In this document: piece by piece, positions 1-34,055 of the stretch | How positions within the stretch are numbered: position 1 is the stretch's first letter | Layout: every line of letters starts with the position of its first letter | The notes under the pieces: generated by a model | What the model saw: the letters and a program-made list of their open reading frames with translations, nothing else | Databases searched by the model: none | Told to the model about the DNA's origin: nothing | Assembly (NCBI GenBank): GCA_004431415.1 | Contig: QPMI01000490.1 | Coordinates: 1-64,000 of the forward strand | Origin: Cyanophora paradoxa CCMP329 | Lineage: Eukaryota > Plantae > Glaucophyta | Length of the DNA: 64,000 nucleotides | Reading direction: 5' to 3' | Translations under genes and position numbers: made by a program

Positions 1-444
1 TACGCGTTGAATTCCGACAATACAGTGAACTTACTGATTGCCTGATGCGACGGGGGGCTGTCCTGCGATAGCCGAGGGAACCTGCTCTCGCCCGTCCGCA
101 TCCCTGCGATCATCGAGGACCTTGTCGGCACCATCCGCGGCATGTCCACTGTCACGAATAAAAATTAGACACAGCGCAAGGACCGTACACACCACTGGCG
201 TTGAAAGTTTCAAAACCCACCTGGCCGCCGGAACCGGATTTCCAGAAGCTTCGGGCTTCTCAGTGACATCAATCGCTGTCTCCTCCGCCTCGGCTTCCGG
301 CTGCAGTCCCTTCGCTGGATTACCACTCCCTTTTGCCTTTGCAGGTGGAGCTGTCGCCGACGCTTTCTTAGGCGTCTTCACACTGGCCTCCTCAGGATTA
401 TCACCTTGCGCGGCAGGGGCCGTGGTCTTGGGTTGACGGGCCAT
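1..444 (-). CDS. 5' part of an unknown gene (MARQPKTTAPAAQG...), probable paralog of the gene at 13983; runs off the window start
   Basis: ATG at 444 (minus) opens an Ala/Pro/Lys-rich N-terminus like MARQSKAAAA at 13983. Both ATGs have a similar upstream motif (aaagtttgaaatt vs aaatttgaaatt). Confidence 0.5.
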
Positions 445-1794: not shown

Positions 1795-2860
1795 ATCCTC
1801 CGCCGTCCCGGTCCCGCCGCGAAGGCTCGCGAGTAGGTCGCCTGCGCTCACCTAGTCGCGCAGGCGCGCGTTGAAGGGCGGGAGGCGTGCACGAAGTGAG
1901 AAATGGGCGCCGATGTGTCCGACGCCCCCGCCGCAAGGCGCTGCGAGTCGAGCTCCCTGCATCCGCGCTATCGCGCGGGCGCGCGTCGAAGGGCGGGGAG
2001 TGCGCACGACGCGAGAGATGAGCCGCCGCTGCGCCCCGCTGCCCCGCCGCGAAGGCGCAGCGATTCGGGGCGCCTGCGCTCGGCTTCTCGCGCGGGGCGT
2101 GTGGGGAAGGGCGGTGAAGCGCGCACCAGGCATAGATGGGCCGCCGCTGCGTCCCGGCCGCCCCGGCCCTGCGCGAATGCTCCGCGAGTCGGGTCGCCGT
2201 GCTCACCTCTTCGCGCGGGGCGCGACGCGGAAGCGGGGATGCGCGCACCAAGCGAGAGATGAACCGCCGCTGCGCCCCGGCCGCCGTCGCCGCGCGGCGC
2301 GCCGCGAGAGGTCCTCCCTGCGCCCGCCCCGTCGCGCGAAGCGCGGCGCCGAAGTGCGGGAGGCCGCACCAAGCGAGAGATGGGCCGCCGCTGAGCCCGC
2401 GAGTCGGGTCGCCTACGCTCGCTTGTCGCGCGGGGCACGGCGGGAAGGCGGGAGGCGCGCACCAAGCTATAGATGGCGCCGCTGCTACCCGGCCGCCCCC
2501 ACGCGAAGGTGCCGCAAGTCGAGCTACCTTCGCCGCCCGTTGCGCGGGCGCGGCGAGGAAGGGCGGGAGGCCCGCACCAAGCGAGACATGTGCCGCCGTG
2601 CAAACCGGCCGCGCCGCCCTGCCGCAAAGCGCCGCGAATCGGGTCGCTCCGTTCACCTAGCTCGTCGCGCGGGAGCGGCGCTGAAGGGCGGGAGGCGCGC
2701 ACCAAGCGAGAGATGGGCCGCCGCGGCCTGCGGTTCCGGACACCCCCGCCGCGCGGGCGTCGCGAGTCGAGATCCTGCCCCGCCCCGTCGCGCGGGCGCG
2801 GTGGCGACGGGTGTGGAGGCGCGCACCAAGCGAGAGATGAGCCAAGGCTGCGCCCGGGTG
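1795..2860. repeat. GC-rich degenerate tandem array, about 9 units of about 95-125 bp
   Basis: Core gcgcaccaagcgagagatg(g/a)gccgccgctg recurs near 1888, 2001, 2120, 2242, 2364, 2457, 2572, 2697 and 2821. Confidence 0.9.
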
Positions 2861-2920
2861 GCTTACTATATTCTAGTCCATGTCCTAGCTAAAGATCTTC
2901 GCATCGCGGACTGAAAGCAA
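2847..2920 (+). repeat. Dispersed direct repeat, copy 1 (copy 2 at 12981-13055)
   Basis: 36-bp identical core ggcttactatattctagtccatgtcctagctaaaga at 2860-2895 and 12995-13030; flanks also similar (cggactgaaagcaa). Confidence 0.9.
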
Positions 2921-2932
2921 GATGTCGAATAA

Positions 2933-2972
2933 GACTCACTCCCAGGATTCGAACCTGGTCTAAGCGATGTGA
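2933..2972 (-). other. tRNA-like 3' half (T-arm/B-box fragment), not a complete tRNA
   Basis: Minus strand reads CCAGG-TTCGAAT-CCTGG (perfect 5-bp T-stem with canonical T-loop), then GAGTGAG. No matching 5' acceptor strand or D-arm found. Confidence 0.45.
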
Positions 2973-2995
2973 GCAGCCGTCCGGGACGGCTGGTC
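2971..2995 (+). repeat. 25-bp palindromic motif, left copy of an inverted pair
   Basis: gagcagccgtccgggacggctggtc. The reverse complement of 21111-21135 is gagcagccgtccaggacggctggtc (24/25 identical). Confidence 0.85.
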
Positions 2996-4894
2996 TAGAT
3001 CTACGGGTACCGAATAGCAAAGCTTCAGCCCGACCCTTCAACTAATAGCCAAGCTTCAGCCCTTTTTTGGAGCTTCGAATAGTGAGGAGCGGCTGGTCAC
3101 TTCCCCTTATCGAGCGCGCCATCCCGATGTCCACGAAGATGAATATCTGGCTTTGCGCAGGTGAGTCGCACGTGTGCACTGCGTGACTCAAATGTGCAAG
3201 CAAAGCCAGAACTTCGGAACTTGTACTAATATGCGTCCTCTACGCGCAGCGGCAGGCTAACGCGCTTGCACACTGGAACGCAGAGAAGAAGAACGAGGTT
3301 GAAGCGTTCCGACTCGCAGCTCAAGAGGTGCGCCTTATGCCGCGCAGTGCGAGGAGGGCCGCCGCTGCGCCGCGTAATTTGAGGCGTGGTTCGTAGATAG
3401 GCAGCGTCGTCGATCATCACCCACCGGCTGCAATGTGGAAGACACAGAACGCCGCCGGGGAAGCAAAAGACGCAGGGAGGAGGATCTTCTCTGGGCAAGC
3501 GGCGCCGCGACCGCAGCGACAAGCGGGACATCTACAGCGCCCGTGGCCCGCCCAAGCGTGGCCATTGCGAGTAGTAGCGTAGCTGCTAGCGGCCGAACGC
3601 ACATGTGCTCGGCTGCAGAAGTCACAACGGTCGGTGGGCATGCACACCTTCAACCACCCCACATCGTAAAAACGACGATTCGCCAGCGGCGGTCAAGCCC
3701 ACCGACTCGATGCTCGTGCCTCAGCTCGCCCGCGCATCTGCATCGCCTGCGGCGAGGAGAGCACCAGAACACAAGAGCCCTGCTCGCGCCATCGAGAACG
3801 GCTTCGTGGTAAGAACCTCAAGTGATTACAATATATAGCTACACTATGAATCTGACACGTGGGCACAGGGGCATGTACTTGTCTGTATGATGGAAGGAGG
3901 AGAGCTTGGCGCGAAAATTCAGGAGCGCGCAAGGAGGTCATCGATGCGATCGACATCTTCTTTCGCGGGACTCAGCGGGTATTGCAGTGCAACTTGCTCA
4001 AGAGCTACGACTCGTGAGAGCCAGAATCGATAGATTCCCTGAAGAACATATATCTTCGTCAGAGCAAGCGACCGATTCACTACGTACCAGGATGACCCAG
4101 CCGCTGGAATTGAACGTGTGTACTCCTGCATTTATGTTTTCGTCCAGCACGCGTTGCGGTTGGGTGGCTGACTCAAGACACAGGAAGGGAACAGTGGCAC
4201 CACTGAAGACGGACTACGTCGGTCATTGCGCATGCCGTATGCAATGCAATCAGAGACGCGAAGTCAAACGTGGAGCGCGAACTGGGCTGGTTGCAATCGG
4301 TCTCAAGGTCGATCGGAAGCTGGAGGGTCTTGCTTTCTACCTGGCGGATGAAGTTGTCACCCTGCGCAAACTTGCAGGGCAAGCAGGGGCGCCAGAGCAA
4401 TCTGGTAATCTGCATCCCGCGCCAATAGAGCTGTCGCCTACTCAGCCCTCCGGCTTCAGCTACTACGGCACAGAATCTTCGCACCCTCCCTCAGAACCAC
4501 AGGATCGCGGACCACCCGTGACCAACGTATTCTTATCGAACTCTCTCCTTTTCGCCGTTCTGCCGATCTCATCGTCAACCATTTCGCCTGCGGCAGCTCG
4601 CCGTCCACCACCTTACACTCCTCCTATGTGTACGTTTTCCGTGCACTCATAGTTCTTTCATTTAAAGTTACTAATCTCGTTCGTACAGAGCACGGGATTC
4701 GGTGGTGGTTGTCCATGTCCAATATCACACCATACTCTCAAGCTAGCCCCTCCAAATACACAATAGGCGGCTGCTTACGATTACGATGAATAAACTATAC
4801 GTAGACTTGGGTTTTCCGAGCTATATACGCAGGCTATCGTTGTGGTACGAAGGTACCAGTGTTGCCTACAGTACTGTGCACAAACAATCAGGAG

Positions 4895-5052
4895 GGCATT
4901 GGAAATCTCTTTTGTGCGAAGCGGCAGACCGTAGTGTGCACGATGCCGGATAGCGAAGAACGTGGTGAGGTCCCGGCGGAGTCTATCGTACCAGGTAAAC
5001 TCTGCCGCATGTGTGACCGGCAGCAGCGTACACATGCACGTTCGTAAATTTG
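4895..5052 (-). pseudogene. Inverted, frameshifted paralog fragment of the ORF at 10303-10623
   Basis: Reverse complement aligns with about 10309-10465 (aacgtgcatgtgtacgctgctgccgg...gagattt). Peptides: WYDRLRRDLTTFFAIR vs WYERLRRDLIKFFAMR. Confidence 0.7.
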
Positions 5053-5093
5053 TACGAAAGGTGAACTGAGTCGATTGTCATTGGATCACGTCT

Positions 5094-7407
5094 GTGCACG
5101 TGCTGCGTTTCAATGAACATCGTATGCGCTGGTCCTTTCTACGTTTGCTTGCTCCTTTCTCTTATGTTCGGGGGTACCCTGTATCGATTTGCTTTGGTGA
5201 TATCGGCTCTTTGGATCCGCTTCCCGCGCTGCTGGTGTTCATCATCTACGCAAAGCGTGCGTATGCAACCCGCCTACTGCCTGGGTTATGCTGCGCGGGT
5301 GCTGGCACACCTTTTAGCTGGGCTCTCGTCGACGTCGGAGCGGGCTTGCATCTCTCACACTTCTTACGCAGCTCATTCTGACGGCAGGTATTAGAGGCAA
5401 GACAGTACGGACTGCCTGTACGACCTTCTGGCGTCAGTCCCGAAGCCACGTCATCCGGCTCGTTCTGTCTTGCAATGAACATCACGCGTATGACACGTAA
5501 GTTTCTCCTTCGTGGTATTTCCGACGTTACGGGTTTGAAACCAGATCTCTGTCGTAGGTTCACGAATGCAGGATCTGTGCAGCGGGTAAAATTTTCTTTT
5601 GACGTTGGTATTATTGCCGCGTCATTGCAAAAGGACAGGTGTTCGAGAACCCTGGGATTTTCATTATTATCGCATCTTTCATATGTGACAACCAGTACCG
5701 TGCTGTCGTCTGTGTGCTTGGTGGCGTCTGTCAGAGTTGGAGACGTATAGTACGTGTGGTTGCCGTGATTGATGCGGTACTGATGGCCCTCGAGCTCATT
5801 TCTCTTGTCCTTCAGGCACGCAATTTCAAACCAGTGTCAGCTGTTTTTTCGTGCAGGATGAAAGTGGACTTGTGCGCAGACCCATCGGTCAAGTTAATAT
5901 AAGCGTGAATTCAATTGCGGAGGTGCGTTGTATTTCGCTAATGAGATCGCCCATGATCACCTCGGTAGCTAATGACATGATTCAGGCCGTTCGTATGCTA
6001 ATATCGCATCCTAAGAAGTGTCTTCTCGAACATGTGCGTTTTCAGGGTTACGACGCTATGTAACATATACCTCACGTCCTTCGATGGCTCCTAGGTTTTG
6101 ACAACAGTTACGAGGGTGGTGTTTATTACTTCACGTACAGAAGAAATATTCGTAGAACTCCCTCGTCTCGTGACTCATATTGGGTGTGCGGATATGCTAG
6201 TTGTCGAACTGTGCATATTTCGTGCACGTCCGTCACCGAATACGCTTTTTTGGTTTGTTAATTCAATTTCGGCTGTTGTGTTTCTATCTCATTTTTAATT
6301 ATCAAATGAACAGGCAAGTCGCAGGAAATGGAAATCGTACTGAAAGAATTTACGCGGAACTTACTACACGCCATGGACACTGTGCCAGCACATGTAATTC
6401 CAGCTGGATTCGGTGTCTCAGTCACGACATTATCGTCTCTGCGCACAGGCCCAACCGTTCCATCATCTACCAAAACATATATTGCTCATGCGCCACTTTT
6501 GGGGGGCTATCCGTCTGCTGCAATTTCCCATGTACGCGTCTTTTCTAAAGTCGTGAATGCTTTAATTAATAGAGCGTCCGTTGATATATTAAGCGCAGTT
6601 GGAGATTTGTTTGGATCCCAGAGAATCAGATCTGTTGATACTACACTCCGTCCTGGAACGACGGGAGAAGCCATTGAGTCTGGCAGGATAGCATTGCAGT
6701 CGCAGCATTCGATATCTTCTGCAAGAGCACTCCGTCGCCATGAATCACTTGTCAGTGAAACATGGAGGCTCTCGGCTTTCATTTCACCTATATCGCATCG
6801 ACTCAAGATATTCGGATTTTATATACGTATTAATGAGGACTGCCCATTGCAGTGCTGTGTGGATCCGATTGTCGATCCATTTCAACAGAGTATACCGCCG
6901 CTCGAAGTGTGCAAGATATTGACACCGGATCCTCGCACTGGGCCGTTACTCTGGGTATATTTGCAAGAACTTGCAATGTGCTCATTTTTCTTGTATATAT
7001 GTTTGGGTGATTTTACGTTATTCTGTCCTTAGGCAAAGGGGATGGCGGAGTTCCGGGAATTCCGATATGCCTTTCGTTTGCTGGAATTGATTCTGGCGGA
7101 GATTTCTAAACCGTTCCTTCTGTCATTTGAAGGGTGCGTGTTACGGTAGGGACTGTGAACTGGTTTTTCATTTTTCGTTTTCATCTGAATTGTCCTTGCT
7201 TTGTACAGATTAAATTTGTCGCATGTGGCGGGTCTTTTATTCGAGACAAGGATTGTGACATTACTGGAACGTAACCCACCCCGTCATCTCATTCTTCGTG
7301 ATTGTTATAAATGGCCAACGATGCGAGGAACGGCATTATCGATAGTTTTAGTTTCCCAGTTATTCGGACTGGGTGCCAGATTACATACGAATCATAATAT
7401 TGAGTGA
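5094..7407 (+). CDS. Probable multi-exon gene of unknown function (boundaries approximate, possibly degenerate)
   Basis: Chain of plus-strand ORFs, including the 234-aa ORF 6328-7032, separated by GT..AG intron-like segments (e.g. gtaagt at about 5497 to gtcgtag at about 5557). No domain recognised. Confidence 0.35.
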
Positions 7408-9147
7408 ATGTTTGTCTGGTCAAGTACATATGCATGCATATAGAATCCTAAGCACTACTAGCCCAGTGTTCCACTGCCCCCATCGACCCGCTGCCCCTCT
7501 GCACCCCTTCACCCCGGCCCGAGTATCCCGTCGCCCACCAGTGCCCGCCTCTTCTGGTCTCTAGCGCCCCGCTTCCTACGCCCCTATCGTCCACCCGCGC
7601 CGCCCTCTAGCACCCCGGCCCGTCACCCCTCTGCCGTCTCGCTTCCATCGGAGAGGACCAGCGGGAGACAAACCGCCTAGACTCAGTGTTCCGCCGCCCC
7701 CAGCAACCTTCTGCCCCCCCTCAGTACACCGTCTTCCCCATCGACATGACCCCACTCTGACCCTACTCAGCATCCCGTCTCACACCAGCGACCTGCTGTC
7801 CCCACCGCCCCGTCCCCGCCGCCCTTTAGCGCAAACCCTCTGTTTCTCACTTGCCCCCCCCCCCCCTCCTCCCCCCCCTCCCCCCCGCACCTCTCCGCCT
7901 CTCTAAACATCTGCAGTCGATGATTGCATTTGTAAATGCCTACTTTTGCTTCGGGAATACCTGGATTGCAGACTCAAGGTGTTTAATGCTAGTTCTTAAA
8001 AAGCTGCTTGAACACCAAGCGTGTACCGAGCTCTTTCTCATGTCAGGACACCTACTTCCGGTTGCTTCGTCGACATCTCATCAATGGCCTCTGATAAAAT
8101 TACCATTTCGATCGACACCTTCTGAAGTCTCATCAGGACGCCGGACAGCTTAGCAGAATCATCGTCCGACAGTGGCAAAATTGGGAACGTTGGCCTTGTC
8201 AGAACTGCAAGCAATACGGCCGTGTGAACCAGACGTACGCTAGCAGCAATATTAATGCCGATGTGCACGAGATGCACTGCGTACTTACTTGAATCGTCGC
8301 TTGCGCTGTCGCTGTCAGTGCCCTGCATATCGACATCCGACCCTGTTCGTGCCACCTTTCAGTACACAGCGCGTTCGTTAGCAACCGATCGTACGTTCGG
8401 AATGCCAGATATGCACCTGTTGCATTCTGCCATTTCTCTGCCCAGTGGCACGACGGGCAATCGCTATAGTCATCACCCCGGACACTCTGCGCGATCCCCA
8501 TGCGCGTATGAGTCGGTAGACCGGTCCAACCTCGTGAAAACATGCTCGCGTACTTCCCGACCAGCGTCTGATTGCGAATCGCCTGACGCTTCTGCAAAGT
8601 GAAGTGCATATGCAATGCGTTAGCCTGCTGCGGACTCTGCACGTCTACAGCGAGCGCTGGTCTGAATGCGTCACCTCGCCCATGTTCGATAGGTGCTATC
8701 CGGCTTCGCTCTCCATTAACGTGCAAACGGTAACCTTCCCGACGCGAGCATCTACCCCTGTGCTGTCGCTCCGTCAGCGTCACTTCGATAATAGCTGTCA
8801 TCAGTCTCTCTCCGTACATCCTGTTCCTAGGCGGCCATGTACGACTTGTACGATATCACAGGCGCGATCGATCATCCCCGGCGCAAGCTAGCATCATACC
8901 TCGCTGCGCGCTTTAATCTGAGTGCCTTATACAAGCCCACCGCCACCGATCTATGTATCGCGCCACCGAGGTTCGCACACACGCATGTTCTATCCTTTGT
9001 TTGCGCATCCGATCCGGTAAACACATGTTACTATAGCTACTCTCATGCGTGCTCCTACTCCCAGTTTTTACAGAGCGGTGATATGCTCGGAAGAGCCATT
9101 GACAATGGCTGCCGCGACCATGGGATCATCGACCAGGATTGCCTGTG

Positions 9148-10130
9148 ATGGACGGCTTTTATGCACATCCTGCGGCTTTTGGGGAGCGTCTCCGCGACCA
9201 CGCCTTAATTTCGTACCTTCCTCCTGACATACCAAGCTGCGTGTTCATATCAGGTCCGTCATTCGCCATCGTTCCATACCTATGCATACAAACATACGCA
9301 TCCTCTCTATGCGCACAGGTGGCCTCCCTTCAAAGCCCTCACGTGCCCGCCGATTGCCTACCGAATGGCATTGTACGCATGCATGCGAGAAAGCATGAGC
9401 GCGAACCGTTTGTCCTGAGAGTAGCTTGCAGGAACGATATCGACATCTACGTAAAAGCCTCAACCGTGGCAGAATTCACTCGCGTCGTCAACGCCTTCTA
9501 TCAAGCTGCGGCGCGCGCATCCGCAGAACGAGTCGCGCCTTACCTACCAAAGAATAAAACCGTGGATGTCTTCTGCGCACCTTTTGCCTACGGCATCCAG
9601 ATCATGGCCCCAGGTGTCCTACCTCTGCAGGTGCCTGCTACATGCAGAATATTTCGAACGGTATCATTTCGATTTTCAAATTCTGTTCCTCAGATCAGTG
9701 TCATGGGTTCGAATACTATTGAGCGTATAGTATCATCGTACGACCTCCCTGCATGTGCAATCTACGTGCCAGGAGACGACCTTAGCCACCCGGTCGCAAC
9801 GTTTGCAGCGTGTATGACCCTCATCACGCACACAATTCCATCAACGTGGACTACCTGGGCCTTTTTCACCCCTTCTACTACGTTGAAAATGGCCACGTGT
9901 TAACCACGCATCATCCATACCACTGCGTGCCCCGGATTTTGAAATACGTGCAAGACACCGGAGCTGGAGTACGTACTCTCTCGCATTCAATCCATACTAC
10001 TGCTGGCCTCCGCGATCGTGTTCGTGGGTCATCGCTTTCTGGCATCGAAGACGTTAACCCGCGATCAAGATCCGAACTCGAGTGCATAATGCATCCTGCC
10101 TCCGCAGCTGGCGTCCTGCAACTACTATGA
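9148..10130 (+). CDS. Putative nucleotidyltransferase (Pol-beta superfamily, class II CCA/poly(A)-polymerase-like, virus-type); 3 introns and about 2 apparent frameshifts; true start may be upstream
   Basis: Removing introns 9254-9318, 9373-9431 and 9631-9693 and restoring one base in a C run near 9326 gives CVFISGG...NDIDIYV...PLQISV...IVSSYDLPACAIY. After a frameshift near 9835 it continues to PRILKYVQDTG. Confidence 0.6.
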
Positions 10131-10302
10131 CACTCAAATGTTGTGCGCAGGAATCTGAGGGCGCGTCACCTGGATTGGATTGGTTGCGAAGGGGACACCG
10201 GTCTGCTTCCCTCAGGAGTACACCCTGTGCGTTTCTATTTTATACGATCATCGTGGCCGGTATCGAGTTCACCCGCAAAGTTAATGTGTTTGCGGCCAGT
10301 TC

Positions 10303-10623
10303 ATGAAGAAATTTGCGAACGTGCATGTGTACGCTGCTGCCGGTTACACATGCGGAAGAGTTTACGCCTGGTACGAGAGACTCCGACGTGACCTCATCAA
10401 GTTCTTCGCTATGCGGCAGCTCACACACAACGGTCTGCCGCTTCTCACACAAGAGATTTACGATGCCTTCAACGCTGCATTCGACGCCTCGGTGGCAGCA
10501 AGGGAATCGGACCCCGACAGAGTACGTCGCTACGTATACTATTCCTTCGAATTCCTGCGACCCCTGCTACTACAGTTCTTTCACTCCCCCCAACCCCAAG
10601 TAACTACAGCATGTGATCTCTAA
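10303..10623 (+). CDS. Small unknown ORF (106 aa) with duplicated fragments elsewhere in the region
   Basis: Intact ATG-to-stop ORF. Inverted paralog at about 4895-5052; about 50 bp of it (10475-10523) is repeated at about 10695-10743. Confidence 0.4.
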   Translation: MKKFANVHVYAAAGYTCGRVYAWYERLRRDLIKFFAMRQLTHNGLPLLTQEIYDAFNAAFDASVAARESDPDRVRRYVYYSFEFLRPLLLQFFHSPQPQVTTACDL

Positions 10624-11023
10624 ACCCTCCTTGCGGTGGTGATCGTACCCGTATTCTTCATGTGCACATCTTCACGGGTGCAGTGTGGTGAACTCTGCAT
10701 TCGACGCATCTGTTGCAGCAAGGGGATCGGACCCCGGCATAGTTAAGCTTACTATACTGTAGTCCAGGCCTAGTCAGCTAGCATAGTACGGAGCATGTGA
10801 GGAGGGATCGAGGCAGTGTGAGTGGATGATATTGGAATGGAAGTCAAGTGCAGCAAGCTGAGGGTAGCCAGTGCCAATGTGCGCATTCAATAAAGGCAGG
10901 CAAAACTAAGTAGTCGAGCGCAAGATAGAAGGTGTCAGAGATAGGAAACAGAAATCGATGCGAAACGAACCCCGACAACTGACTGCCATACAACGTATAT
11001 GGAGTACGGCGCGCGTCCTTGCC

Positions 11024-11730
11024 CTAATTCTGACCGACATCGTCGTACATTCCGTGGTACATATCATCATGCAGCGGCCATCCATCTGGGTCCACATCGG
11101 GTCGATGTACGACGTGCTTGGCGACCGTCCCATTCCTCTTCATATAGATTTCGGCCCACCGGCGATCGGGGTCCCAACTGCCAGCACAATCGAAGGCATT
11201 TACTATCAAGTCGTACTCTGCGGTGGGGATGGGTTTAATAGTTGATCATCATCCAAGATTACATGTGTACAGGCACCTCCATTACAGTCCGTAAGCTGAA
11301 CGGACGCAATCACATCGTACGCAGAAGTAAACTCGTTGTTACTCACGCGCACCGCTGCAGGCCCAGGTGGTACTGCTATGATGGCGCCTGTGCCGGGATT
11401 CTTGATTATAAAAACGTCGGGGTCATTTGGCTCATGGCCTCCAGTACGATGATGGAACCGGGGCCGCTGACTCGCACTGATTGAGATATATCGCGGTAAG
11501 AAGCTAAATCGAGATTCGGTCTCGCGTAAGAAGCAGCTAGCACTATATCGGATGTGGGCGACGTATCTGCGATGGCGCAAATCGCAGCATGCACTTGCGT
11601 CAGCAGCGAACGGAGCAAGCGCACGGAGAACATACCTCTCGATCGCTTCTTGGAACCGGAATCGAGGATGGGACGCAAAGTATTCGTCAACGACATGTCT
11701 AGCCGTCTCTGCAAGAATCAAGTCCGGCAA
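11024..11730 (-). CDS. Unknown ORF(s), probably one frameshifted coding region
   Basis: 174-aa ORF 11206-11730 abuts 61-aa ORF 11024-11209. Normal-complexity protein-like sequence, no domain recognised. Confidence 0.3.
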
Positions 11731-12980
11731 TTAGGGGTACAGCCTGCATTCCCGGCGCCGTGAACGACAGCCCGTGCGCTACACGCGCAACTCGTCGCAT
11801 CGTTCTTAGCGCGCTCATTCGCCTGCGCAATCTCCAGCTAGGCCAACCCACCGCTAAGCGCGAAGCAACGCGGCGCGCTCCTTCGCCAACGCCAGCGCCA
11901 TCAAGGCGAACACAAGCGCTAGAAGCGCCGCTCGTCGTACCTTCGAAGCGCGCTCAGTCGCAGGGTGGCTGATACCCCGGCTCGAAGTAAGCATGCTCAG
12001 ACCCGATCCGCGCCTGCCGTCTAAACACAGACGACTTTTAACTTATATGTTTCAACAGGTTCCGATTACTTGATCATGGCGAAAACAAAAGCGTGCCATG
12101 GGATCTCACCTGGGATGTTCAGAGGAACGATGCAGAGGATCGAGCAGCCACATGATTATAGAGGACCGATCCGTGACTATAGTCACTTCTCCGACGTCAC
12201 TACTCTTATGAGAAACACACCGCATGTTGATCGCATCCAAATCGTTGAAGATGGAACGGTTCTGCAACGATTTCTGCAGATCGAGCCTATCCACATCTTC
12301 AGGCCATGGCAAGCCGGGCGTGACTTCGGTATTACCCTTACGTAAACCTCTACTTCTTCACGTCTCACCACCAGACGCCTGCCAGCTATCTCTCGGGCAC
12401 TCGATACGAAACTCCGCCTGCATCTGTCCTGTCCCTACACATCAGAACGTATCAGAGTGCCAGTTCAGTCAGTGTACTGCGTTCACCCGCACGTACGTGG
12501 TCGCATTCCCTTCATAAATTCCACATTATTCTTATCCCTGCGCAGTGTTTCGATTTCAACGAGCACTTGATATTCTCCCTTCATAATGAAGATTGGTCAG
12601 CTATTCGTCCTGCACTCATGGTCATGATCAAAGTTAAATCCTTTCCATAGGGAATGCCCATTCCAATTCTGCCAAAGACAAGCAGGTCTCCACAATCTCA
12701 TCATTGACGAGTTCTTCAAGTCCATCCTTGACGGGGTCTGTGCCCGATTTACCTTTACATCTCATAATTACTGATACCCTCATTCCAGACAACGCCTGCA
12801 GATCTCGCTGTCGAAATAGACAACACAGGAAGATGGCTGCCATGCGCTTCCGACAATATACCCGACTAGATCAAAATCTCCAAGCAAGGCTAGGCCGCGC
12901 ACCCCCATCAGTGCATCACCCCGCCCCGCCCTTCTCTGCCACATCCAACCCCGCCCCCGCCAGGGCGTCGCGAGTCGACC

Positions 12981-13055
12981 GCTGCGCCCCGGGCGGCTTA
13001 CTATATTCTAGTCCATGTCCTAGCTAAAGAGCATCGTACCACGGACTGAAAGCAA
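12981..13055 (+). repeat. Dispersed direct repeat, copy 2 (see 2847-2920)
   Basis: 36-bp identical core; preceded by gggcgtcgcgagtcga, which also occurs in the last array unit (about 2755-2770). Confidence 0.9.
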
Positions 13056-13982
13056 CGTGGCCCCCTAATCGATAGACCTATAGCTAGTAGTCTTCAGTCG
13101 AATCATAGCCACAAACATGGTCATCGTAGCAGTCTGTTTCGGTGCAGCATAGACGATTGCAGATTTCGCCGCGGGCCTTGCCGTATGCAAGGTGCTCTCC
13201 TGGCGCTGCTGGTGGTGCATGTCTCTCATTCTTGGCGCGAGGATCGCCGTATTGACGATCAAGAGGGTTTCGCTTCAGAATCCGCCGACAGCGTATAACT
13301 GTGTGATTGGGGCAGAGGGTTGTGACATAGAAGTAATCAAGCGCGCCCATGCGGACATGAGCCCATGTGCGATCGGTACAGACATCGCATTTTATCATCT
13401 CGCTGCTATGTTCCTCACAGTAGATGCTGCATAACAAGGGCGTTGGCTCCAGTCAGATATGTTGGTTTTGTGCGTAGGGTTGACCACTTAAACATCATAT
13501 ATATCCCTCGCGAACCTGCTACAGTTATCCGATGAGCACCGGTATACCGTATGCTGACGACCGCCAGTACTGGCCATGGAGGGAGCGTGAAAGTCGTCAT
13601 TGCAGAAAAGAACAGGACAGCCAGTGACGGATGAACACCGAGCAAGCCGGCACGTTCGTGCTGGTTCGAGCGGGCATGGGCCGTGCATACCGTCGATGGC
13701 AGGGCACGCGTACGGTCCGTGCGCACGCGCGTCGGCAATCTCATCCCCGGAACACGCTGCAGTCGAAGTAGGAGGTGGATCGGCTTCAGCTGCCGGCGCC
13801 ATTACGCTGTCTGGGCCCAGGCCTCAGTCTGACGTAGAGTCTCTGGCATCAAACCCGAACGGCGGCTTTTTTCCCAATATGCGTACGCGAACTCGGAGAG
13901 TTAGTCGACGATCGAGAACTAAAGTTAGTCCCAAATTTGAAATTTTGCGTTGAGTACGTACTCTAAACCATACCGAAGTGCA

Positions 13983-16417
13983 ATGGCACGTCAATCAAAG
14001 GCAGCTGCTGCTGCAGCCACGGCTGAGAAGAAGGACAACGTGCTCGAGCCGAAGAAGGCTGACGTGGCCGCGTCACTGGCGAAATCTGATGCCACTGCTG
14101 CTGCCGGGAAGGACCCGCTCCCTGTCGCCGTTGACGAGGCTTCGCCGGTGATCCCTACGCCGGTGGATGCGACGTGGACGACGCGGCACGCGCTGCCTGG
14201 GTGCGCTTGGAGTTAATCAATGTTCGGTCCGGCATGGTGCGGATTTAAGCTGACGATCGGCGCGATAGCAGGCTGAACGACGGCATGCCACGGGAAGGGG
14301 CAGCTGCAACTATCACGGCGGCAGTGGCATCGTCTCGCCCGTTGCCTGGCGCGTCCGGATCCATTTGCAATGCTGGGCAAGTGTACGTATTCTACGATCG
14401 CGTAATATTGGCTGTGACTAATACGACGTTATTCGTCCCTGCGTAGATCGGCTGCCGTGCCGGTCGCCACTAATTCGGCAAGTGCCACGGCTAATGGGAT
14501 TGTGATGCTATCGTACGTGCTTTTATAATCAATAGCATTTGTGCACGACGAGCGTCACAACCCTAATATATTTCCAGGCCCGCAAAGAAGGTTACTGTGG
14601 CGCGCACGTTCATGGATTTGAAGGATGGGAGGGATTTTAACGGTGTCGTGCGGATTGCGAACATGCACACCATAAGTGGAAGGAACGGAGGTGACACCAT
14701 CCGCGGTACTCTGGAGGATGAGGTGCGCAACCCCGTTGTAGCTGGGTAACATCATGTGTAATGTCAATGTGGCGATTTTATATAAGCTTTCTGCTCATCG
14801 ACGTACGCAATGCAGGTCGGCGATAAGGTGCCGCTCCGTATCTTCACAGGGGCGATGCTAACAAGTGCGGGAAAAAATGCCATCAAGGGAGACATGCTAA
14901 TCGATCAAGTGAACAATATAACCGAACACTTGAACGCAAGCTGCAACTCAGAAAATATGGTATACTCTCCCATTTACGTATACTTCCATTATCCGTATCA
15001 GTATGCTGACATGGAATATATCGATCAGTACTTAATCATGAAATCATCAAACAAAGCACGCTACTTGGTGAAAGGGACTGCGACCGAGAAACTGGCTTGG
15101 CCATTGACGCGAGACCGCACACTGCTGAAGGAGATCCAGATTAATTCTGGTAATGTCGGTCTAATCAACTTCGAATCAGTGAATGAGGAGGTCTGTCACT
15201 CATGTTTTACCTACATTCATATCGCGCGTATTCATTACCTGCTCACTTTTGCTGCCGTACGTTAGGATCCTCGTCTCATCGAGCTTCCTCACAAACTCGC
15301 GAATATGGATCGCGCATCATTTGTCATGATGCGCTACGACATCGTTTCCGACTTCAGGGGAGCAGCAGTTGACTATATGAATGTCAACAAACTGTGCGAC
15401 TCGAACAGGTTCAGCGAATGTGCGTGCTACTATAGATAACTGGGATGATACCACGTTTTTCGTCGCGCTCGTACCGTGTTTTATCGCTTCATCAGATAAC
15501 ATTGGATGCATCATCAAGGAGGAAGAGGACGGATACGTGTGCATGGACAAGCTCGGGTGTAAGGTGCCAGCTCGGTTTGGACTTGGCGCAAAGTTCGAGT
15601 CCCTCGGGGAGCTGTTCGACACCTACAGCATCGACGGGGTCGCGGACATCGTCGTTTCATTCGCGGAGGTTCGGACGTCTATACTGTAGTTAAACATGGT
15701 AAACGAATGCAAGGCGTAATTCACACGCATTCAAACGTAGTTCAAATTCGAGCGACCATCAGGCACCCCGACGGAACTGTGGTTTGGCTTCTTTTCTGAA
15801 GTAATGGGACTTGCGGAATTCGAGGAGAAAAAGAAGACCCTGCCGGTAGGGTTCGTCTCGAAGGCAATTAAAATTCCGGATGCGAGTGCTCGCTTGCATG
15901 CATCTGTCCCGTTTGGTAATGGGTCGAACCGAGTTGGTGCGGAAGTTCAGCCTATCGGTTTTAACCTGTGTAACCCTTTCATGCAGCGCTCTTCGCCGGC
16001 GGTACCGGCCCGACAGGGAGCACCCCGAATTTGTCGGGTACGACCGGATCCCTGTCAAGGTTGGAAATGGTGGATCAGCGATCGCTCTGAATGGAATCTC
16101 AAGCTCGCCGATGGCAATGGCAGCAATGAACATGCCGATGCAGCTGCGCCTGAGCCTGAAGGACAATCCGTTCGCGGTGTCTCGCGATCGCACTGGAAGT
16201 GAGGCTTCTTTTCCTAATGGGCTCGTTGAGCGCGAGGTATATGACTTTCCGTACATTGCATATGCCACGTTCCAGCTAATCTCGTAGCAGGCAACTATCG
16301 CAAAGCGGAAGAAGGGAGGCAAGGACGAAGCCAAAACTTCAAAGAAACAGAAGAACGTGAGCGTGGAGTCGGAGTCAGATGCGGAGGTGGACGACGAGGA
16401 GGAGGAAGAAAATTGAA
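13983..16417 (+). CDS. Multi-exon gene for an unknown protein with an Ala/Lys-rich N-terminus, basic NLS-like patch and acidic C-terminal tail
   Basis: ATG 13983 (MARQSKAAAA); exon-like ORFs 14810-15190, 15381-15667 and 15880-16236 bounded by GT/AG; last exon ATIAKRKKGGKDEAKTSKKQKNVSVESESDAEVDDEEEEEN followed by TGA at 16415-16417. Confidence 0.6.
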
Positions 16418-16897
16418 CGGACCGACTCATGGCTCTGCATCTAATTCATAGATTCCATATATTCATTCATAGTTTGAACATTTGTCATGTATAGCACAAT
16501 GGCGGGAGGGTAGTAACCGGGTAGCATTATATATATATAGGTTTTCGTAGGTCATTTCGCTTCGCATACGAGATAAAGAGTGTAAATCAATTTCTTATAA
16601 AGTATCACGCAACGATGGCATACGAATCAACCGCACCGGGGCGCGGTTGGCTAGGTTGGGAAGCTGGGCGACCGCGGGCCGGGGCGCTGTAGCTCCGAGG
16701 GCGTGCTCCTGGTAGCGGACGCTAGATGGCAGGGCCAAAGCGCTGGAAGAGGGCCCGGAATGCGTCGGTAACATATTCTCACGTGCTGCATCCCTACGAA
16801 GCATGATGCACGCGACGTACACTGCGAGCACCCCTACGCTTGGTGCGCGCTTTCGATTGCGTACCCGGCCAGTCCGTGCATCTGATCCGCGTCAACT

Positions 16898-17457
16898 ATG
16901 GCGCGTGTGAAGGTGACGCCGAAGAAATCCGATCAACGGATGGCCTCCAAGGCCGCCACCGGGTCCCGCGGTCCGCGCAGGGCCAAGACGGGAACGAAGA
17001 GTGTCATTCCGGGAAGGAAACCTCACCGTTCTCGTCCAGGTGCGAATGCTATCGCCCCATATCGTACCTCGCGGTGCGTGGATGATTACCACGTCAGCCC
17101 GAACCCGCAGGCACCGTCGCGCTTCGTGAAATCCGCAAATACCAGAAGACGACAGATCTCCTCCTTCGCAAGCTGCCGTTCCAGCGGCTGGTGCGCGAGA
17201 TCGCACAGAACTACGGCATGCCGGACAAGCGCTTCCAATCCTCCAGCGTCCTTGCGCTACAGGAAGCCAGCGAGGCGTACCTTATCGGCCTTTTCCAGGA
17301 CGCAAATCTATGCGCTATCCACGCAAAGAGGTGCATTGCGACCTACTGATCATGAATACAACTACACTGCTTACATCTTACAGGCCCGACGCGCAGGGTG
17401 ACGCTCATGCCAAAGGATATGCAACTCGCCCGTCGCATCCGAGGCGAGCGCACATAA
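16898..17457 (+). CDS. H3: Divergent histone H3 variant, 140 aa, 3 exons (16898-17039, 17111-17330, 17397-17457)
   Basis: Spliced translation: [140 protein letters not shown]. Canonical GT-AG introns; AATAAA at 17586. Confidence 0.95.
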
Positions 17458-18079
17458 ATCGTACGATTTCCAGGACGTGAGGTGTGCTCCGACAACTCCG
17501 GTGTAATCCAATTCAGGATACAGTATGTTTAACGCTTCACGAGATTATGTTGCACGTACACTCAATGCAACGGATTGAAAACCGTAATAAAGCCCGTTGA
17601 GTAACGCGACGGACCAACCATCGGACGTGCACTAATTCAGCGGCACGTTATCGAATACAGATGCACATGCTACTTGCATACTGCAGTGACTCGCTCATGT
17701 TGCACAGTCTTCCACTACTCTGGGTAATGCCTGGAGACGGGGGCTGGTCCAGTTGGAAGCCAGCGCCGGGTTGCTTGCGGGGGGGCATGGCCGGGAGCGA
17801 CGGAGTACGGGGCACTACGGGGCGGCAAGGACGATGCGCTGCGGCGGGCCGGTGCATGGGGGCGGATCGCGCGGGGCGGAGGGCGATGGGCTGCCTCCAC
17901 ATCTCTCGGCTGACGTGCGCAAGATTGTGCTCACCCCGGTCGCCATCGCCCTTGCATGACCGACTCATCATATCGCTGACGGATGACGTTTGCCACGTTC
18001 TCGTCCGCGCTCCTGTAACGACATCGGAATCAAGATTTTATAGTATGGCGAAGTGTAGAGACGTGTTGACAAATTAAAG

Positions 18080-21034
18080 GGAGAGGGGGGCGACGGTACA
18101 TGAGGAGGGGGGGGGAGGGCGGTAGGGGGGGAGGGGGGTATGGAGCTTACCGCCGAATGGCCTCCTCCGCGAGTACGGCCACCTGCATTGCAAGAGTCAG
18201 CCGTCATACTGAAAACGTCATTATCGGTAGTCCTATGCTTCGGTATGATTGAGTGTAAAAATCGTGTGGACCCTACAGTCGATCAAGTACAGAATCAAAT
18301 CGAGCCGGCCGGGGACGCCGATGCCGGCGCCTTTGCAAATCTCCACCAGCCGACCCCGAAACATCTTCATTGGATACAGCAGCAGCTCCGGCCCTGTCAA
18401 TGGCAGCTCCTGCATGCACTGTAACCTGCTGCAGCGTTGGCTGAGAGTTCACGTAAGGGAAAATGGACGGACTCTGGAGATCCATCAGGGAGCGTGACAA
18501 ATTGGCGAATATACGCGAGGACGGTGGGAGGCGTCCAGGTCATCACCGTCGCGGAGTCCGGGCCCACGGTACCCGGAGGTTGGGCTCCCATGTTCCCCGT
18601 GTTATCGTCGTCAACGCTGTCGCTCGCGGCATGTACCGGTGCGTTGGCATCTGACGTTGGATTACTAGGTGGTCAGAGACGACGTTCCAATAGAATATAA
18701 CTTCGCTAGATCTAAAGTTGCTAGCTCAGGCACTGATAGCGCCTGCACGACCGCACGTCCGTAATAGCGCACCTGCCTCCGGTCGTACTCTCTCGGTTCT
18801 CGCCCCTGCTCTCCGAATTAATCGGGTAGCCCGAATATTTAAACTCGATAGGTAATAATTCGCACACCCTCTGATGAGACTTTAGCCTTCTTCGAATTCC
18901 GCGTGTTCGCACTTGGGCCCCCGTCCTTCTTTGCAGCAGAAGAGCTCTCCTCGATCACACTACCCGCCGATTCGTACGCCTCCTCGTCCTCGTACGCGTC
19001 CTCCCCATCCGTCTCGCCCTCTACTCAAGGCGCCATGCGTCAGCGATTACTCACATCGCATCGCTCGACATACCACTACTGGTTTCAGCGTTGTACTTGG
19101 GGCAGGTCTTCATGTGATTGGACAGGGTCTTCTTGCTGGCATACGTGCGATTGCAATTAGCAGCGGGGCAAGGGAGACGGTCGTCGTCGGCCTTCTTGCT
19201 CGTAGCTTCGGAAGCTGCTGGATAAATTCAATGAGTACCGTTCGCACACCAGCCGGCGCACATGAGAGGCATGTTTGGCACCTGACTTCCGTTTGCATGC
19301 ATCAATGTGCGTCCCCTTTCCTTTGAACGTTATGCCACAGTTATCACAAATAAACGGCGCCTGCTTCTTTCGCGCTTTCCCAGACGATCCTGCATCTCAG
19401 TCAGATCGGCTGCAGTTATGCATGATGTATGGGGAATGCAGTCAGCGATCGTGACCGTACCCCGTGACGCCTCGGTGCCCTTTCCTGCATCAGTCGACTC
19501 CGCCCCCTTCGAACCCTCGCGCTGGTTGCCTGCAATTGAGTCTAAGGGGTCGCTCCCTCGAGGGTGTTCGGGGACCTCTTAAATTCAACGCATCCTGCCG
19601 CTCACCAGGCCCTCCAGGTTGACTGTCTATACCTCGAGACTTGCCTGCGAGCATGTGAACTGTGACCATCTCGAGTGGATATTACGGTGCACCGGTTGCG
19701 TACCTTTCGATGTGGCGACGGGTGGTACGCCCGCCACCTCGCCTGCTTCCTTGCCCTTGCCAGTACCGCGCGATGACGCCATGCCTGCGGGCTCGAAGGA
19801 CAATTAACTGCCGTATCCTTGCGACAGACGCTGCTCCCTTCGTTCGTGCACCTGATGAACGAACCGTAGTCTGGGGGGGGCTTGATGCCCGCTCTTGTTT
19901 CACTTCGTCCGGGCGCCGCCACAGATTGGGCGGCGCAGGGACATTCGATCTCGTGGTTCTCGCCTGGGGGGGGCTTGATGCCCGTTCTTGTTTCACTTCG
20001 TCCGGGCGCCGCCGCATATTGGGCGGCGCAGGGACATTAGATCTTGTGGTTCGCATTGCATCGGCGGGCTCGACTTTCGGCTGTACAGCGCGACCATCTT
20101 TGTACGCATCAGAACTACATATATCGCGCCAATTTCAAAGTTCCAATGACCGCACCTGTGCTGTGACGCCGCGGGCTCTTCTCTGATAGGCGCATCCCAT
20201 CTGCGGCTCCAGCATTGCTGCCGCCTATTACGCCTGGCACCCGCCCGAGCCTGCCGCAGAGCCGAACCGAGGTTGTCAGTCGCATCGTTCTAGCGGGGCT
20301 GCGCGCATGCACCTGCTATGTCGCCTTGGTCGCTCGAACCTGGTCCTGGGCCAATCGTGACGTCACACCGCGAGCCATCGGAGGTCAGTTCCTTCACTCC
20401 GGCTGATCCACTATCGCTGCCGCCGGGTGTACATGCGCCCCCGTCCAAGCCTGCCGCCAACCCGAAGTTGTCAGTCGCTTCGTTCGAGAGGGGGTCCGGG
20501 CAGGCACCTGCGATGTCGCCTTCAGCCGGCGCGCTCGCAGTCTGACTGTCGCCTTCCGCGGGTTATTTGCCGTCGCCGCCGCGCGCGCCGTCCCGCCCGT
20601 GTCCTTTGCACCTTCTGCCGAGTCCAGATCGATCACTGCTCGATTACAGTCAGCGTCAGGGCGCGGCGCTCGCTTAGTCTACGGTATCACCTGGAGCTCC
20701 GTCGCCTTCGGCATCGCCTGAAAGCGCCGGCGCCTCGCTCGTCGTCTTTCTCGACTCCATTGTCTCGTCGGCCGAGTCCAGATCAATCACTGCTCCAGTC
20801 CGGTCAACGCCAGCACGCTGCGCTTCCGTGGCACTCTCACCTGATTGAGCCGCTAGCGCTCCTGCCGTACTGTTCCCTTCCATGTCCCTTTCGGCCGCGC
20901 CACCGCCCTCGTCGTCTTGTGCGAGCCTCTCGGTACGATCGTCGCCGGCGTGCGGCGAACCACACTCTCGCTCCATGTGCACCTAGTGCTGCGGCTGTCA
21001 GCTGGTTCCCTGTGGTGATGCTGTGCACGTGCAC
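18080..21034 (-). CDS. Multi-exon low-complexity protein with C-terminal SAM-like domain and two SIM-like motifs (boundaries approximate)
   Basis: Removing intron 18426-18472 gives VMTWTPPTVLAYIRQFVTLPDGSPELQCMQELPLTGPELLLYPMKMFRGRLVEICKGAGIGVPGRLDLILYLIDCR, matching the SAM pattern W-T-x-x-x-V...G-x-x-L-L...G-I-x-x-x-G-R. AVIDLDSA occurs twice (about 20617 and 20771). Acidic patch near 18990. Confidence 0.45.
19871..20052. repeat. Tandem duplication, 2 x 93 bp (31 codons)
   Basis: ctggggggggcttgatgcccg...acatt(c/a)gatct(c/t)gtggttc starts at 19871 and 19964. Frame-preserving in the minus ORF (RTTRSNVPAPPN..RRPDEVKQERASSPPQ twice). Confidence 0.9.
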
Positions 21035-21110
21035 CCGACGCTCTGGTCTTCAGCTTCCTTACCTGCTCGCACCTGGCGTCTTACGCGCTTATTCCAACGT
21101 GTACCCCTTC

Positions 21111-21135
21111 GACCAGCCGTCCTGGACGGCTGCTC
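21111..21135 (-). repeat. 25-bp palindromic motif, right copy of the inverted pair with 2971-2995
   Basis: gaccagccgtcctggacggctgctc. Confidence 0.85.
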
Positions 21136-21536
21136 CCTTAGCTTCATTATAAGCTCATACTCGGAAGCCCGACGTCGACGGGCGGCGGCTGGGCTCCTGG
21201 TGCGACACGGGGATTGATCAGGCGGCTGAGGTCCGGATCGCTGGGCGCAGTTACCGTAGTACGTATACGGGCGGAGACCCGCCAGACGCGTACGTATACG
21301 TACACCGGATCCTGAGTACTAGTGGATCGCCGCGCCGGCGCTGCGGCCGGCGCCGGGCCGCACCTCCGACCCGGGCCGGGCCGGCGGCGGGCCGCGCCCG
21401 GCCTGCGGCAATAAGCAAGGCATGAGGAGGACCTGCAAACCCTCCGAATTACCTGCAGCTGATCGATGTAACATAGCTAGCTACCAATATTAATAGTGCT
21501 CTAGATCTCGCCGGGCCTATAGCTAGGCATCCGGAT

Positions 21537-25181: not shown

Positions 25182-26383
25182 CCTGAGGGGCCTCCGGCCC
25201 TCCAGGCTCCAGGCAGACTCCGGCCGGGATAATATCGATATCATAGTATATTATTTACTGTATATATATGGCCCTGCATGCTGAATCCCGCCGCCGGGTC
25301 CCTGAATCGGACATGATATGGCCCATCATATGGGGCCTCTCTAGTAGTCTCTATATAGCTACTAGGCTTGCTCGATCTCGGCCTAGCGGCCCTAGCCTAG
25401 TAGGCCTGGGCCATGATTCCCATGAATTGACGTCGACGACAGTCGGACCGACTCGGACGCTTACGTCGACGTGAAGTTTTTTTAACGTGCACGTCGTCGA
25501 CGACTCGTCGTAGCCGACTCGTAGGTGCCATCACACGTGCACCGTCATGCCACCGTGCACGGTGCATCATATGCATATGCATCTGATGCGTTCATCGACA
25601 TCACTGAGTCATCTGCGCGCGGCGGCCCGCCGGCGGGGCCTTGCAATTTGCAATTGGGCCCGGGCCCGCGCCGGAGGCTCCGGAGCCCCGGGGGGCCGGC
25701 GGGGGCCGGCCCGGCCGGGCCCGCGGGCCCGGGGCGGGGAGCGGCAGGGGCTGAGACCCGACCCGACTCGGCGACTCCCGACTCCGAGGCTCCCGAGTCC
25801 CGAGGGCCGGGGCGCCGGCCGGGGCCGGGAACGTTTAGTCCGGGCCGCGACTGGTACCGGGGCCGGGGCGCCGGGGCCGGGCTGGGGCGGGGGGGATCTG
25901 GAGGGGAGCTTCCCGAGGGGGAAGGAGCTCGAGGGGGAGGGGGGGGGGGAGGGAGGGAGGGGGGGGGAGGGGGGCAGGGGGAGGCCTATATATCTAGGGG
26001 GGCGCCAAAGCTGCTGCTTGTCGAGGCATCCTTCGGCAAGTAGCGTTTTTTAAAAAATTAATTCATGCACACCCTCCGAGGCTCCTCCTCAACCTTAAGC
26101 TTCTAGCCTAGTAGATCTGTGTCCGACGGTCCGTGCAGGTATGCGCGCAGCCCAGGCATGCGCGCAGCCCGTGCACGTGGCGCTAGCTGGGGAGATCGCA
26201 AGCCCCATATATGCATGCGCAGTAAGCCAAATTTAATTTATAAAGCTTTAATTTGCCGAGCCTCATTTATAAGCCTTTGAAGTGAATATTCAGACAATAT
26301 AGGTACCCCCCCGCGCTGCGGGAGCGCGTCTGTTAGCCCAGACGCGTGCACGTCTCTCACGTCAACCATCTGGATCGTAATCT

Positions 26384-33983: not shown

Positions 33984-34055
33984 TTCTGTATATATTTTGT
34001 GCTAGTTTACTGTATCTTTGATTTGTGATTGCTTTGTTGTCTTTAATATCACTAC

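What the first reader, a model, noticed from the sequence alone, without database searches (positions are those of the whole stretch)
16898..17457. Histone H3 variant that mixes canonical and CenH3-like features and has a rewritten tail
Seen: an intact 140-aa spliced gene. Compared with canonical H3 it keeps K4 and K9-S10, loses the A-R-K27-S motif, and has Arg at the K36 position (GRKPHR vs VKKPHR) and Ser at Y41. Its tail is 3 aa longer. Loop 1 is one residue longer ([11 protein letters not shown] vs AQDFKTDLRF), T107 is Ala, and the end reads VTLMPKDM; these are CenH3-like. It retains Q68 and F84, which CenH3s usually lose. Inference: either the host CenH3 or an element-borne variant that could escape K27/K36-based control. 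It is undamaged while its neighbours carry frameshifts.
Basis: partly seen in the sequence, partly recalled or inferred. Interest (0 to 1): 0.8.

Follow-up and report, generated by a model that had tools for sequence, protein, structure and literature searches.

The report
Element-borne histone H3 variant in alga
An unusual, spliced and transcribed histone H3 gene of the alga Cyanophora paradoxa lies in a DNA block of at least 18 kb present in about five near-identical copies; it is likely cargo of a large mobile element rather than the centromere histone, and its rewritten tail would help that element avoid silencing.

Summary
The gene is real: three exons, 140 aa, both introns spliced in RNA-derived contigs of 4 of 4 runs laid. 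Two reported features fail. Short-read contigs read Tyr, not Ser, at Y41, and the neighbours' frameshifts look like long-read errors. Five Cyanophora paradoxa gene models encode this protein; four adjoin the same orphan gene, and DNA depth is flat at about 5-fold over 2981-21500. A sister variant has four more models. It is not a typical CenH3: Q68 and F84 are kept, the fold is 80% identical to canonical H3, and the species has a better CenH3 candidate. A 2017 supplement nevertheless files this protein as CenpA. Best reading: an H3-derived cargo gene of a large, intron-rich, recently amplified element of unassigned class; no transposase, terminal repeat or target duplication was found. It lacks K27, K36 and K79 and alters the K9 motif while keeping K4, so anti-silencing is plausible but untested. 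Transposon-borne H3-like genes are published for fungal hAT elements, and this scan met them before on fungal DNA. New variant of a known kind.

The parts
16898..17039 (+). H3 variant exon 1: rewritten tail (K4, K8, K9-S10, K17, K29, K33, R39 at the K36 position, K40)
   Evidence: covered by RNA contig
17030..17032 (+). Codon at the Y41 position: Ser in the window, Tyr in short-read contigs and gene models
   Evidence: (17031 C>A, 4 of 4 DNA runs)
17040..17110 (+). Intron 1, 71 nt, GT-AG, splits the G44 codon
   Evidence: joint in 4 of 4 runs
17111..17330 (+). Exon 2: histone fold with loop 1 +1, K79 lost, L82K, 87-90 SSVL, E105Q, T107A; Q68 and F84 kept
   Evidence: (PF00125)
17331..17396 (+). 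Intron 2, 66 nt, GT-AG
   Evidence: joint in 4 of 4 runs
17397..17457 (+). Exon 3 with stop codon (I119L, I124M, A135T)
13983..16416 (+). Upstream orphan gene (P0121 family, about 563 aa), spliced and transcribed, co-duplicated with the H3 gene
17931..19600 (-). Downstream convergent gene: two C2H2-type fingers (one Pfam-supported) and a C-terminus that looks SAM-like by eye only; 5' end not fixed; one RNA contig joins it to the H3 transcript
12346..12567 (+). Frame holding an SP-RING/MIZ zinc-finger match (E 5.9e-5, below Pfam's cut-off)
1..444 (-). 5' part of a paralogue of the upstream orphan gene (P0122 family, 56% identical), running off the window
   Evidence: accession adjacency
1813..2843 (.). 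Tandem array, 121-bp unit x 8.9, higher depth than the block
2866..2995 (.). About 130-nt unit with a tRNA-like B-box motif (minus strand, read by eye) and an 8-bp hairpin; partial copy at 12981-13055; hairpin end repeated inverted at 21111-21144
2981..21536 (.). Multi-copy block: flat DNA depth about 4-6 times the depth of a unique junction, long contigs with 0-1 other letters; likely continues left of the window

Best explanation
This is a spliced, transcribed H3 variant lying in a block of at least 18 kb that is present in about five near-identical copies, likely a large mobile element that captured a canonical H3 gene and is predicted to use the altered histone to keep its own chromatin active. 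Shown: gene structure, transcription of the family, five gene models, co-duplicated orphan neighbours, a sister variant with the same fold changes, fold close to canonical H3. Inferred: that the block is self-mobile (no mobility gene or ends seen); that the protein pairs with H4 and enters nucleosomes (fold intact); that loss of K27, K36, K79 and the A7P/R8K change beside K9 make such nucleosomes poor substrates for repressive writers and readers while K4 stays usable (recalled enzyme preferences, untested here); and that neighbouring zinc-finger and SP-RING proteins help place it on the element. I put element cargo at about 0.7 and the anti-silencing role, given that, at about 0.4.
For: Introns spliced in 4 of 4 RNA-type runs. 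Five EukProt Cyanophora accessions for this protein and four for sister P0005. The upstream orphan's accessions directly precede 4 of 5 H3 accessions, on four different contigs, and its paralogue lies within a few accessions at 3 of these. Depth of the contig over the gene against a unique junction: 229/41.6, 363/70.6, 623/111, 19.1/3.5, i.e. 5.1-5.6 in 4 of 4 DNA runs; a 5.5-kb contig over the gene has 1 other letter; the species is reported as likely haploid (PMC6704402). The orphan family hit only 3 of 1.84 billion representatives, all Cyanophora. Block GC 0.52-0.56 against 0.58-0.63 in the host-like genes to the right; no CpG depletion. P0003 and P0005 are sisters (SH-aLRT 89-95, quick tree) with 83 of 95 fold residues but 20 of 38 tail residues identical, the pattern expected from selection on the fold. 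Precedent: expressed H3-like cargo in fungal hAT elements (PMC3538342).
Against: No transposase, helicase, recombinase, polymerase or capsid match in about 200 of the 269 frames of 45 aa or more scanned in 2900-21500 (frames are cut by introns and indels). No target-site duplication, and the left end lies outside the window. Contig depth is not a copy number by the tool's own warning, and no single-copy gene was laid as control. One of five H3 accessions (P013471) has no listed orphan neighbour. A published H3 tree put this protein in the CenpA cluster (PMC5579357). No core PRC2 was found in an older assembly and H3K27me3 was inconclusive (PMC5405695); repeats in this species are reported to be marked by CpG methylation (PMC12344493), which a tail change need not affect. 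No protein, nucleosome or location data. RNA contigs cannot say which copy is transcribed.
Confidence: 0.6

Rival explanations
1. A host H3 variant (stage- or region-specific) that was multiplied passively in a recent segmental duplication; the block is not self-mobile.
For: No mobility gene or ends found; genes are intron-rich and spliced like host genes; depth steps inside the block (about 4-fold at 4995-7876, about 6-fold at 13803-15542) show copies of unequal extent.
Against: Neighbours are species-restricted orphans with their own diverged paralogues; a tandem array and hairpin unit shared with other repeats lie in the block; copies lie on different contigs; several variant subfamilies exist.
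Confidence: 0.18
2. It is the centromeric histone, or a CenH3 paralogue, of Cyanophora.
For: Divergent tail, loop 1 +1, T107A; listed as CenpA (CPAR004349) in the supplement of PMC5579357.
Against: Q68 and F84 kept; fold 74 of 92 identical to canonical H3; best 60 solved-structure matches are all ordinary H3s; about five copies; the same supplement lists a fifth Cyanophora entry (CPAR010062) with Ala at the Q68 position and a short unrelated tail, a better CenH3 candidate (compared by eye; its model runs into another gene, so loop 1 and F84 are not visible).
Confidence: 0.07
3. Element cargo without function: a captured H3 that drifts and is transcribed only because the element is.
For: No protein evidence; fungal H3-like cargo is often dead or suggested to drift (PMC6710886, PMC3538342); L82K and E105Q might weaken nucleosomes (inference).
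Against: Two subfamilies keep open frames and 83 of 95 fold residues while tails differ at about half; both appear transcribed (loose end at 17108 in run X17 matches P0005).
Confidence: 0.1
4. A fragment of an endogenised giant virus that gained introns; the histone is a viral H3.
For: Giant-virus insertions are reported in C. paradoxa (PMC12344493); viral H3 genes exist; many orphans.
Against: The 5 viral H3 loci found are 48-63% identical, below cellular H3s at 64-69%; no viral hallmark gene matched; the orphan neighbour had no relative in viral contigs; genes are intron-rich and transcribed.
Confidence: 0.05

Closest known systems
H3L genes in hAT 'transduplicating' elements of Pyrenophora tritici-repentis (Manning et al. 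2013, PMC3538342; passages read)
   Same: Near-identical multi-copy H3-like gene inside a repeat, transcribed, altered tail, matching neither H3 nor CenH3 fully, function unknown.
   Different: Here a glaucophyte, about 5 (+4 sister) copies rather than 26; block of at least 18 kb with many intron-rich orphan genes rather than 2.3-5.6 kb; no hAT transposase or terminal inverted repeat found; at least two diverged subfamilies share fold changes.
hAT-amplified H3-like copies in Pseudocercospora, Cercospora and Sphaerulina (Dhillon et al. 2019, PMC6710886; abstract and passages read)
   Same: Histone H3 captured and amplified by a repeat family.
   Different: Those copies are intronless and inactivated by RIP; this gene keeps two spliced introns and an open frame.
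CenH3/CENP-A (criteria quoted in Drinnenberg et al. 2014, PMC4359364, passages read; Cyanophora entries in van Hooff et al. 2017, PMC5579357, passages and parts of supplement 3 read)
   Same: Divergent tail, slightly longer loop 1, Thr107 replaced; this very protein is listed there as CenpA.
   Different: Gln68 and Phe84 kept, fold 80% identical to canonical H3, K4 and K9-S10 kept, multi-copy.
Giant accessory-gene transposons with chromatin cargo: Plavaka of red algae, VANDAL, HarbingerS (bioRxiv 10.1101/2025.02.11.637652, passages read)
   Same: 17-19 kb scale, accessory genes suggested to act on chromatin, internal tandem arrays.
   Different: Their cargo are enzymes or DNA-binding proteins, not a histone; a DDE transposase is present there and was not found here.

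Membership tests
CenH3 | Gln68 replaced | tested here: not met
   Gln kept
CenH3 | Phe84 replaced | tested here: not met
   Phe kept
CenH3 | Thr107 replaced (PMC4359364 prints 118; I take it as T107 from recall) | tested here: met
   Ala; also in 4 of 137 other H3 hits
CenH3 | Longer loop 1 | tested here: met
   +1 residue; also in 8 of 137 other H3 hits, several with canonical tails
CenH3 | Highly divergent N-terminal tail | tested here: met
   Rewritten, but K4 and K9-S10 keep their register
CenH3 | Groups with CenH3s in a tree | tested here: inconclusive
   No recognisable CenH3 among the 125 rows of my tree; a published tree put it in the CenpA cluster
CenH3 | Located at centromeres | not testable with these tools
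   Needs ChIP or imaging
Canonical H3 / H3.3 | Conserved tail with K9, K14, K18, K23, K27, K36 motifs, and K79 | tested here: not met
   Tail lysines at 4, 8, 9, 17, 29, 33, 40; K79 lost
Histone H3 family | H3 histone fold | tested here: met
   PF00125 E 1e-41; best structures are H3
H3L-carrying hAT elements | H3-like gene in many near-identical, transcribed copies | tested here: met
H3L-carrying hAT elements | hAT transposase in the element | tested here: inconclusive
   No match in about 200 of 269 frames; frames broken, left end outside the window
H3L-carrying hAT elements | Terminal inverted repeats with 8-bp target duplication | tested here: inconclusive
   Only a 34-nt, 88% inverted pair 2962-2995/21111-21144, without flanking duplication by eye
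Helitron-type elements | Rep/helicase gene; RPA-like OB-fold protein | tested here: inconclusive
   No Pfam match; neighbour looks OB-like by eye only; models at pLDDT 27 and 40, no fold match above Z 4.6
Giant-virus endogenous element | Viral core genes (polymerase B, capsid, packaging ATPase) | tested here: inconclusive
   None matched in the frames scanned; whole element not available

The most novel reading that the evidence does not exclude
Cyanophora carries an undescribed class of giant, intron-rich mobile elements that encode their own nucleosomal H3 variants, lacking K27, K36 and K79 and with a disabled K9 motif, and deposit them on their own copies with element-encoded zinc-finger and SUMO-ligase-like proteins: anti-silencing by histone replacement, diversified into several subfamilies that were mistaken for centromeric histones.
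Probability: 0.15. Interest if true: 0.85.

Novelty: new variant of a known kind. Interest (0 to 1): 0.52.

Why it matters
Whether transposon-borne H3-like genes do anything has been open since they were reported in fungi. Here the copies are intact, spliced and transcribed in an alga grown in culture, and two subfamilies share fold changes, so selection, nucleosome entry and location can be tested directly. It would extend histone capture by mobile elements beyond fungal hAT elements, point to an unclassified large element, and suggest that up to four of the five Cyanophora 'CenpA' entries in a kinetochore survey are not centromeric. If the gene proves a passive passenger, the finding is a modest annotation correction.

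Tried and rejected
No whole genome is held for this window, so the five loci could not be aligned and element ends could not be mapped. Ser41 and 'intact among broken neighbours' were rejected as likely sequence errors. Alternative splice sites (AGs 13 nt upstream of both acceptors) are not the ones used in the contigs. No listed run is on record as RNA; the four laid were RNA guesses whose contigs skip GT-AG introns. Searches for a mobility gene found nothing: Pfam on 70, 149 and 65 sequences, PHROGs on 21; this absence is weak because frames are broken. The upstream orphan found no relative in viral or metagenome contigs, solved-structure sequences or Pfam; two structure predictions were low-confidence and fold searches on the second were uninformative; the ESM Atlas gave no answer. 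My by-eye readings (OB-like, SAM-like, MCM-like, B box) are untested. The search aimed at CenH3-like C-termini returned mostly fused canonical histones, so the tree (quick method, 94 columns; P0002, P0004 and multi-domain or short rows left out) cannot place the variant against CenH3. No tRNA gene and no meaningful Rfam match. dN/dS could not be computed without the sister gene's DNA. Literature searches returned no paper describing these Cyanophora genes as element-borne; searches found no usable statement of CenH3 residues. Grau-Bove 2022 and Iyer 2014 were not held; supplements of PMC6704402 and PMC12344493 were not read and may bear on repeat or viral annotation of this block.

Full report
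1. The observation. The gene has three exons (16898-17039, 17111-17330, 17397-17457) and two GT-AG introns of 71 and 66 nt, giving 140 aa. Contigs of 4 of 4 RNA-type runs laid (of 6 such holders listed; at most four studies) skip exactly these introns. Against a stored canonical H3 the fold differs at 18 of 92 positions, with one residue inserted in loop 1 and three in the tail. A substitution in one copy is not excluded, because contigs drop rare variants.

2. The neighbours are not decayed. RNA contigs of all four runs carry an extra G at 16045, 17738 and 17778, and DNA contigs show many more one-base insertions against the window. The 13 sites inspected are G or C, 12 at runs of two or more, and one unknown base at 16045 opens the upstream frame. 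The downstream gene, spliced with the observed joints, is one open frame whose stop precedes the other two indels. This is the pattern of long-read deletion errors left in repeats (inference; the species' published assembly used PacBio RSII reads, PMC6704402, passages read; I did not establish that the window comes from it).

3. Organism and copy number. The closest proteins are EukProt models of Cyanophora paradoxa: P0003 (three accessions), P0002 and P0004 (one each, 99-100% identical over the fold), and a sister variant P0005 (four accessions). The upstream orphan gene's accessions directly precede four of the five H3 accessions, on contigs tig00020516, 20597, 20781 and 20876; its 56%-identical paralogue, whose start lies at window 1-444, sits within a few accessions at three of them. 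The fifth (tig00020693) has no listed neighbour. DNA depth is nearly flat from 2981 to about 21500 and is 5.1-5.6 times the depth of a unique junction in 4 of 4 runs; a 5.5-kb contig across the gene has one other letter. The tool warns that contig depth is no copy number and I laid no single-copy control, but the figure agrees with the five models. So the gene sits in a young, multi-copy block of at least 18 kb that likely continues left of the window.

4. What the block holds. An orphan gene family with only 3 hits among 1.84 billion representatives, all Cyanophora; a C2H2-finger gene; a weak SP-RING match; internal paralogues; a 121-bp array and a hairpin unit shared with other repeats; GC 0.52-0.56 against 0.58-0.63 in host-like genes further right. 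About 200 of the 269 frames of 45 aa or more in 2900-21500 were scanned (my count) without a transposase, helicase, recombinase, polymerase or capsid match. Frames are cut by introns and indels and the left end is missing, so the element class stays open. Structure prediction of the orphan failed.

5. Not a typical CenH3. Of the diagnostic features quoted in PMC4359364 (passages read), the divergent tail, longer loop 1 and Thr107 change are met; Gln68 and Phe84 are kept. The met features are weak: among 137 stored H3 hits, 8 have the loop insertion, 4 T107A and 61 I124M. The 60 best solved-structure matches are ordinary H3s. Against my reading, van Hooff et al. 2017 list this protein (CPAR004349, with Tyr) and P0005 (CPAR026130) as CenpA on the basis of a tree (PMC5579357; passages and supplement hits 1-30 and 101-128 of 128 seen). 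The same list has five Cyanophora entries; only CPAR010062 lacks Gln68, which makes it the better CenH3 candidate (by eye; its model is fused to another gene). My tree held no CenH3 and cannot test the placement; it joins P0003 and P0005 (SH-aLRT 89-95, quick method), which share 83 of 95 fold residues but 20 of 38 tail residues. cenH3 is defined as a functional class (PMC3380720, passages read), so location must decide.

6. How it likely works. Shown: an intact H3 fold, transcription of the family, and shared derived changes in two subfamilies (loop +1, K79 lost, L82K, A88S, M90L, E105Q, T107A, I124M). Inferred: the protein enters nucleosomes with host H4. Its tail keeps K4 but has Pro-Lys before K9, no K14, K23 or K27 motif, and Arg at K36. 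From recalled enzyme preferences, such nucleosomes would be poor substrates for K9, K27, K36 and K79 methylation while still accepting K4 marks, which would favour an element under host silencing. Caveats: no core PRC2 was found in an older assembly and H3K27me3 was inconclusive (PMC5405695, passages read); repeats in this species are marked by CpG methylation (PMC12344493, abstract and passages read); nothing shows targeting to the element. A viral origin is not favoured: five viral H3 loci are 48-63% identical, below cellular H3s at 64-69%.

7. Comparison and novelty. Earlier notes of this scan on fungal DNA led to the precedent, which I checked: 26 near-identical, transcribed H3-like genes in hAT elements of Pyrenophora (PMC3538342) and hundreds of RIP-inactivated, intronless copies in Pseudocercospora and relatives (PMC6710886). 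Large elements with chromatin-acting accessory genes are known from red algae (bioRxiv 10.1101/2025.02.11.637652, passages read) and Amoebidium (PMC11244446, passages read). Searches returned no description of these Cyanophora genes as element-borne; the library lacks most subscription papers. The finding works like the fungal H3L cargo but is not shown to be a hAT element. Verdict: new variant of a known kind; interest 0.52; best explanation 0.6.

Noticed in passing
window 26295-34097: Apparently full-length LINE: endonuclease (PF03372) and reverse transcriptase (PF00078) matches, poly-A end and a 13-bp target duplication at 26282-26294 / 34098-34110.
   Followed up: partly
window 2866-2995, 12981-13055, 21111-21144, 13803-13805: A 130-nt unit with a tRNA-like B box and an 8-bp hairpin follows the 121-bp array. 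In 4 of 4 DNA runs a low-depth contig has its 2912-2995 part inserted at 13803/13805, so the unit seems to move on its own, possibly with a TA duplication (ends read by eye).
   Followed up: partly
window 17455-18011: One RNA contig runs from the H3 transcript into the convergent zinc-finger gene, consistent with overlapping 3' UTRs, which PMC6704402 reports as common in this species; a contig across two genes shows no single transcript.
   Followed up: no
window 4892-5051 and 10309-10470: Inverted 87% identical coding-like stretches: two paralogous orphan genes inside the block; depth about doubles at 9171-10504.
   Followed up: no
window 13000-13854 (-): Spliced, transcribed small gene with a Cys/His-rich product; no Pfam match.
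   Followed up: no
window 35200-54600 (-): Very large gene with many fibronectin type III repeats and a 45-bp internal array; a Cys-rich receptor-like gene follows at about 58200-64000 (+).
   Followed up: no
PMC5579357 supplement 3, CenpA list: Two more Cyanophora variants (CPAR022740, CPAR004798) keep Q68 and F84 and have C-terminal extensions. Three of the four variant models lack the Gly before TVALRE and the fourth starts there, which would fit a shared intron in the G44 codon (inference).
   Followed up: partly
P0036, P0053-P0055: Unnamed metagenome H3s with canonical tails share the +1 loop and Lys at 82, but form their own clade in the tree.
   Followed up: partly
window 2981-7876: Dense one-base deletions relative to short-read contigs (26 gaps in 2981-5013; 21-22 in 4995-7876), so gene models in these repeats are unreliable.
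   Followed up: partly
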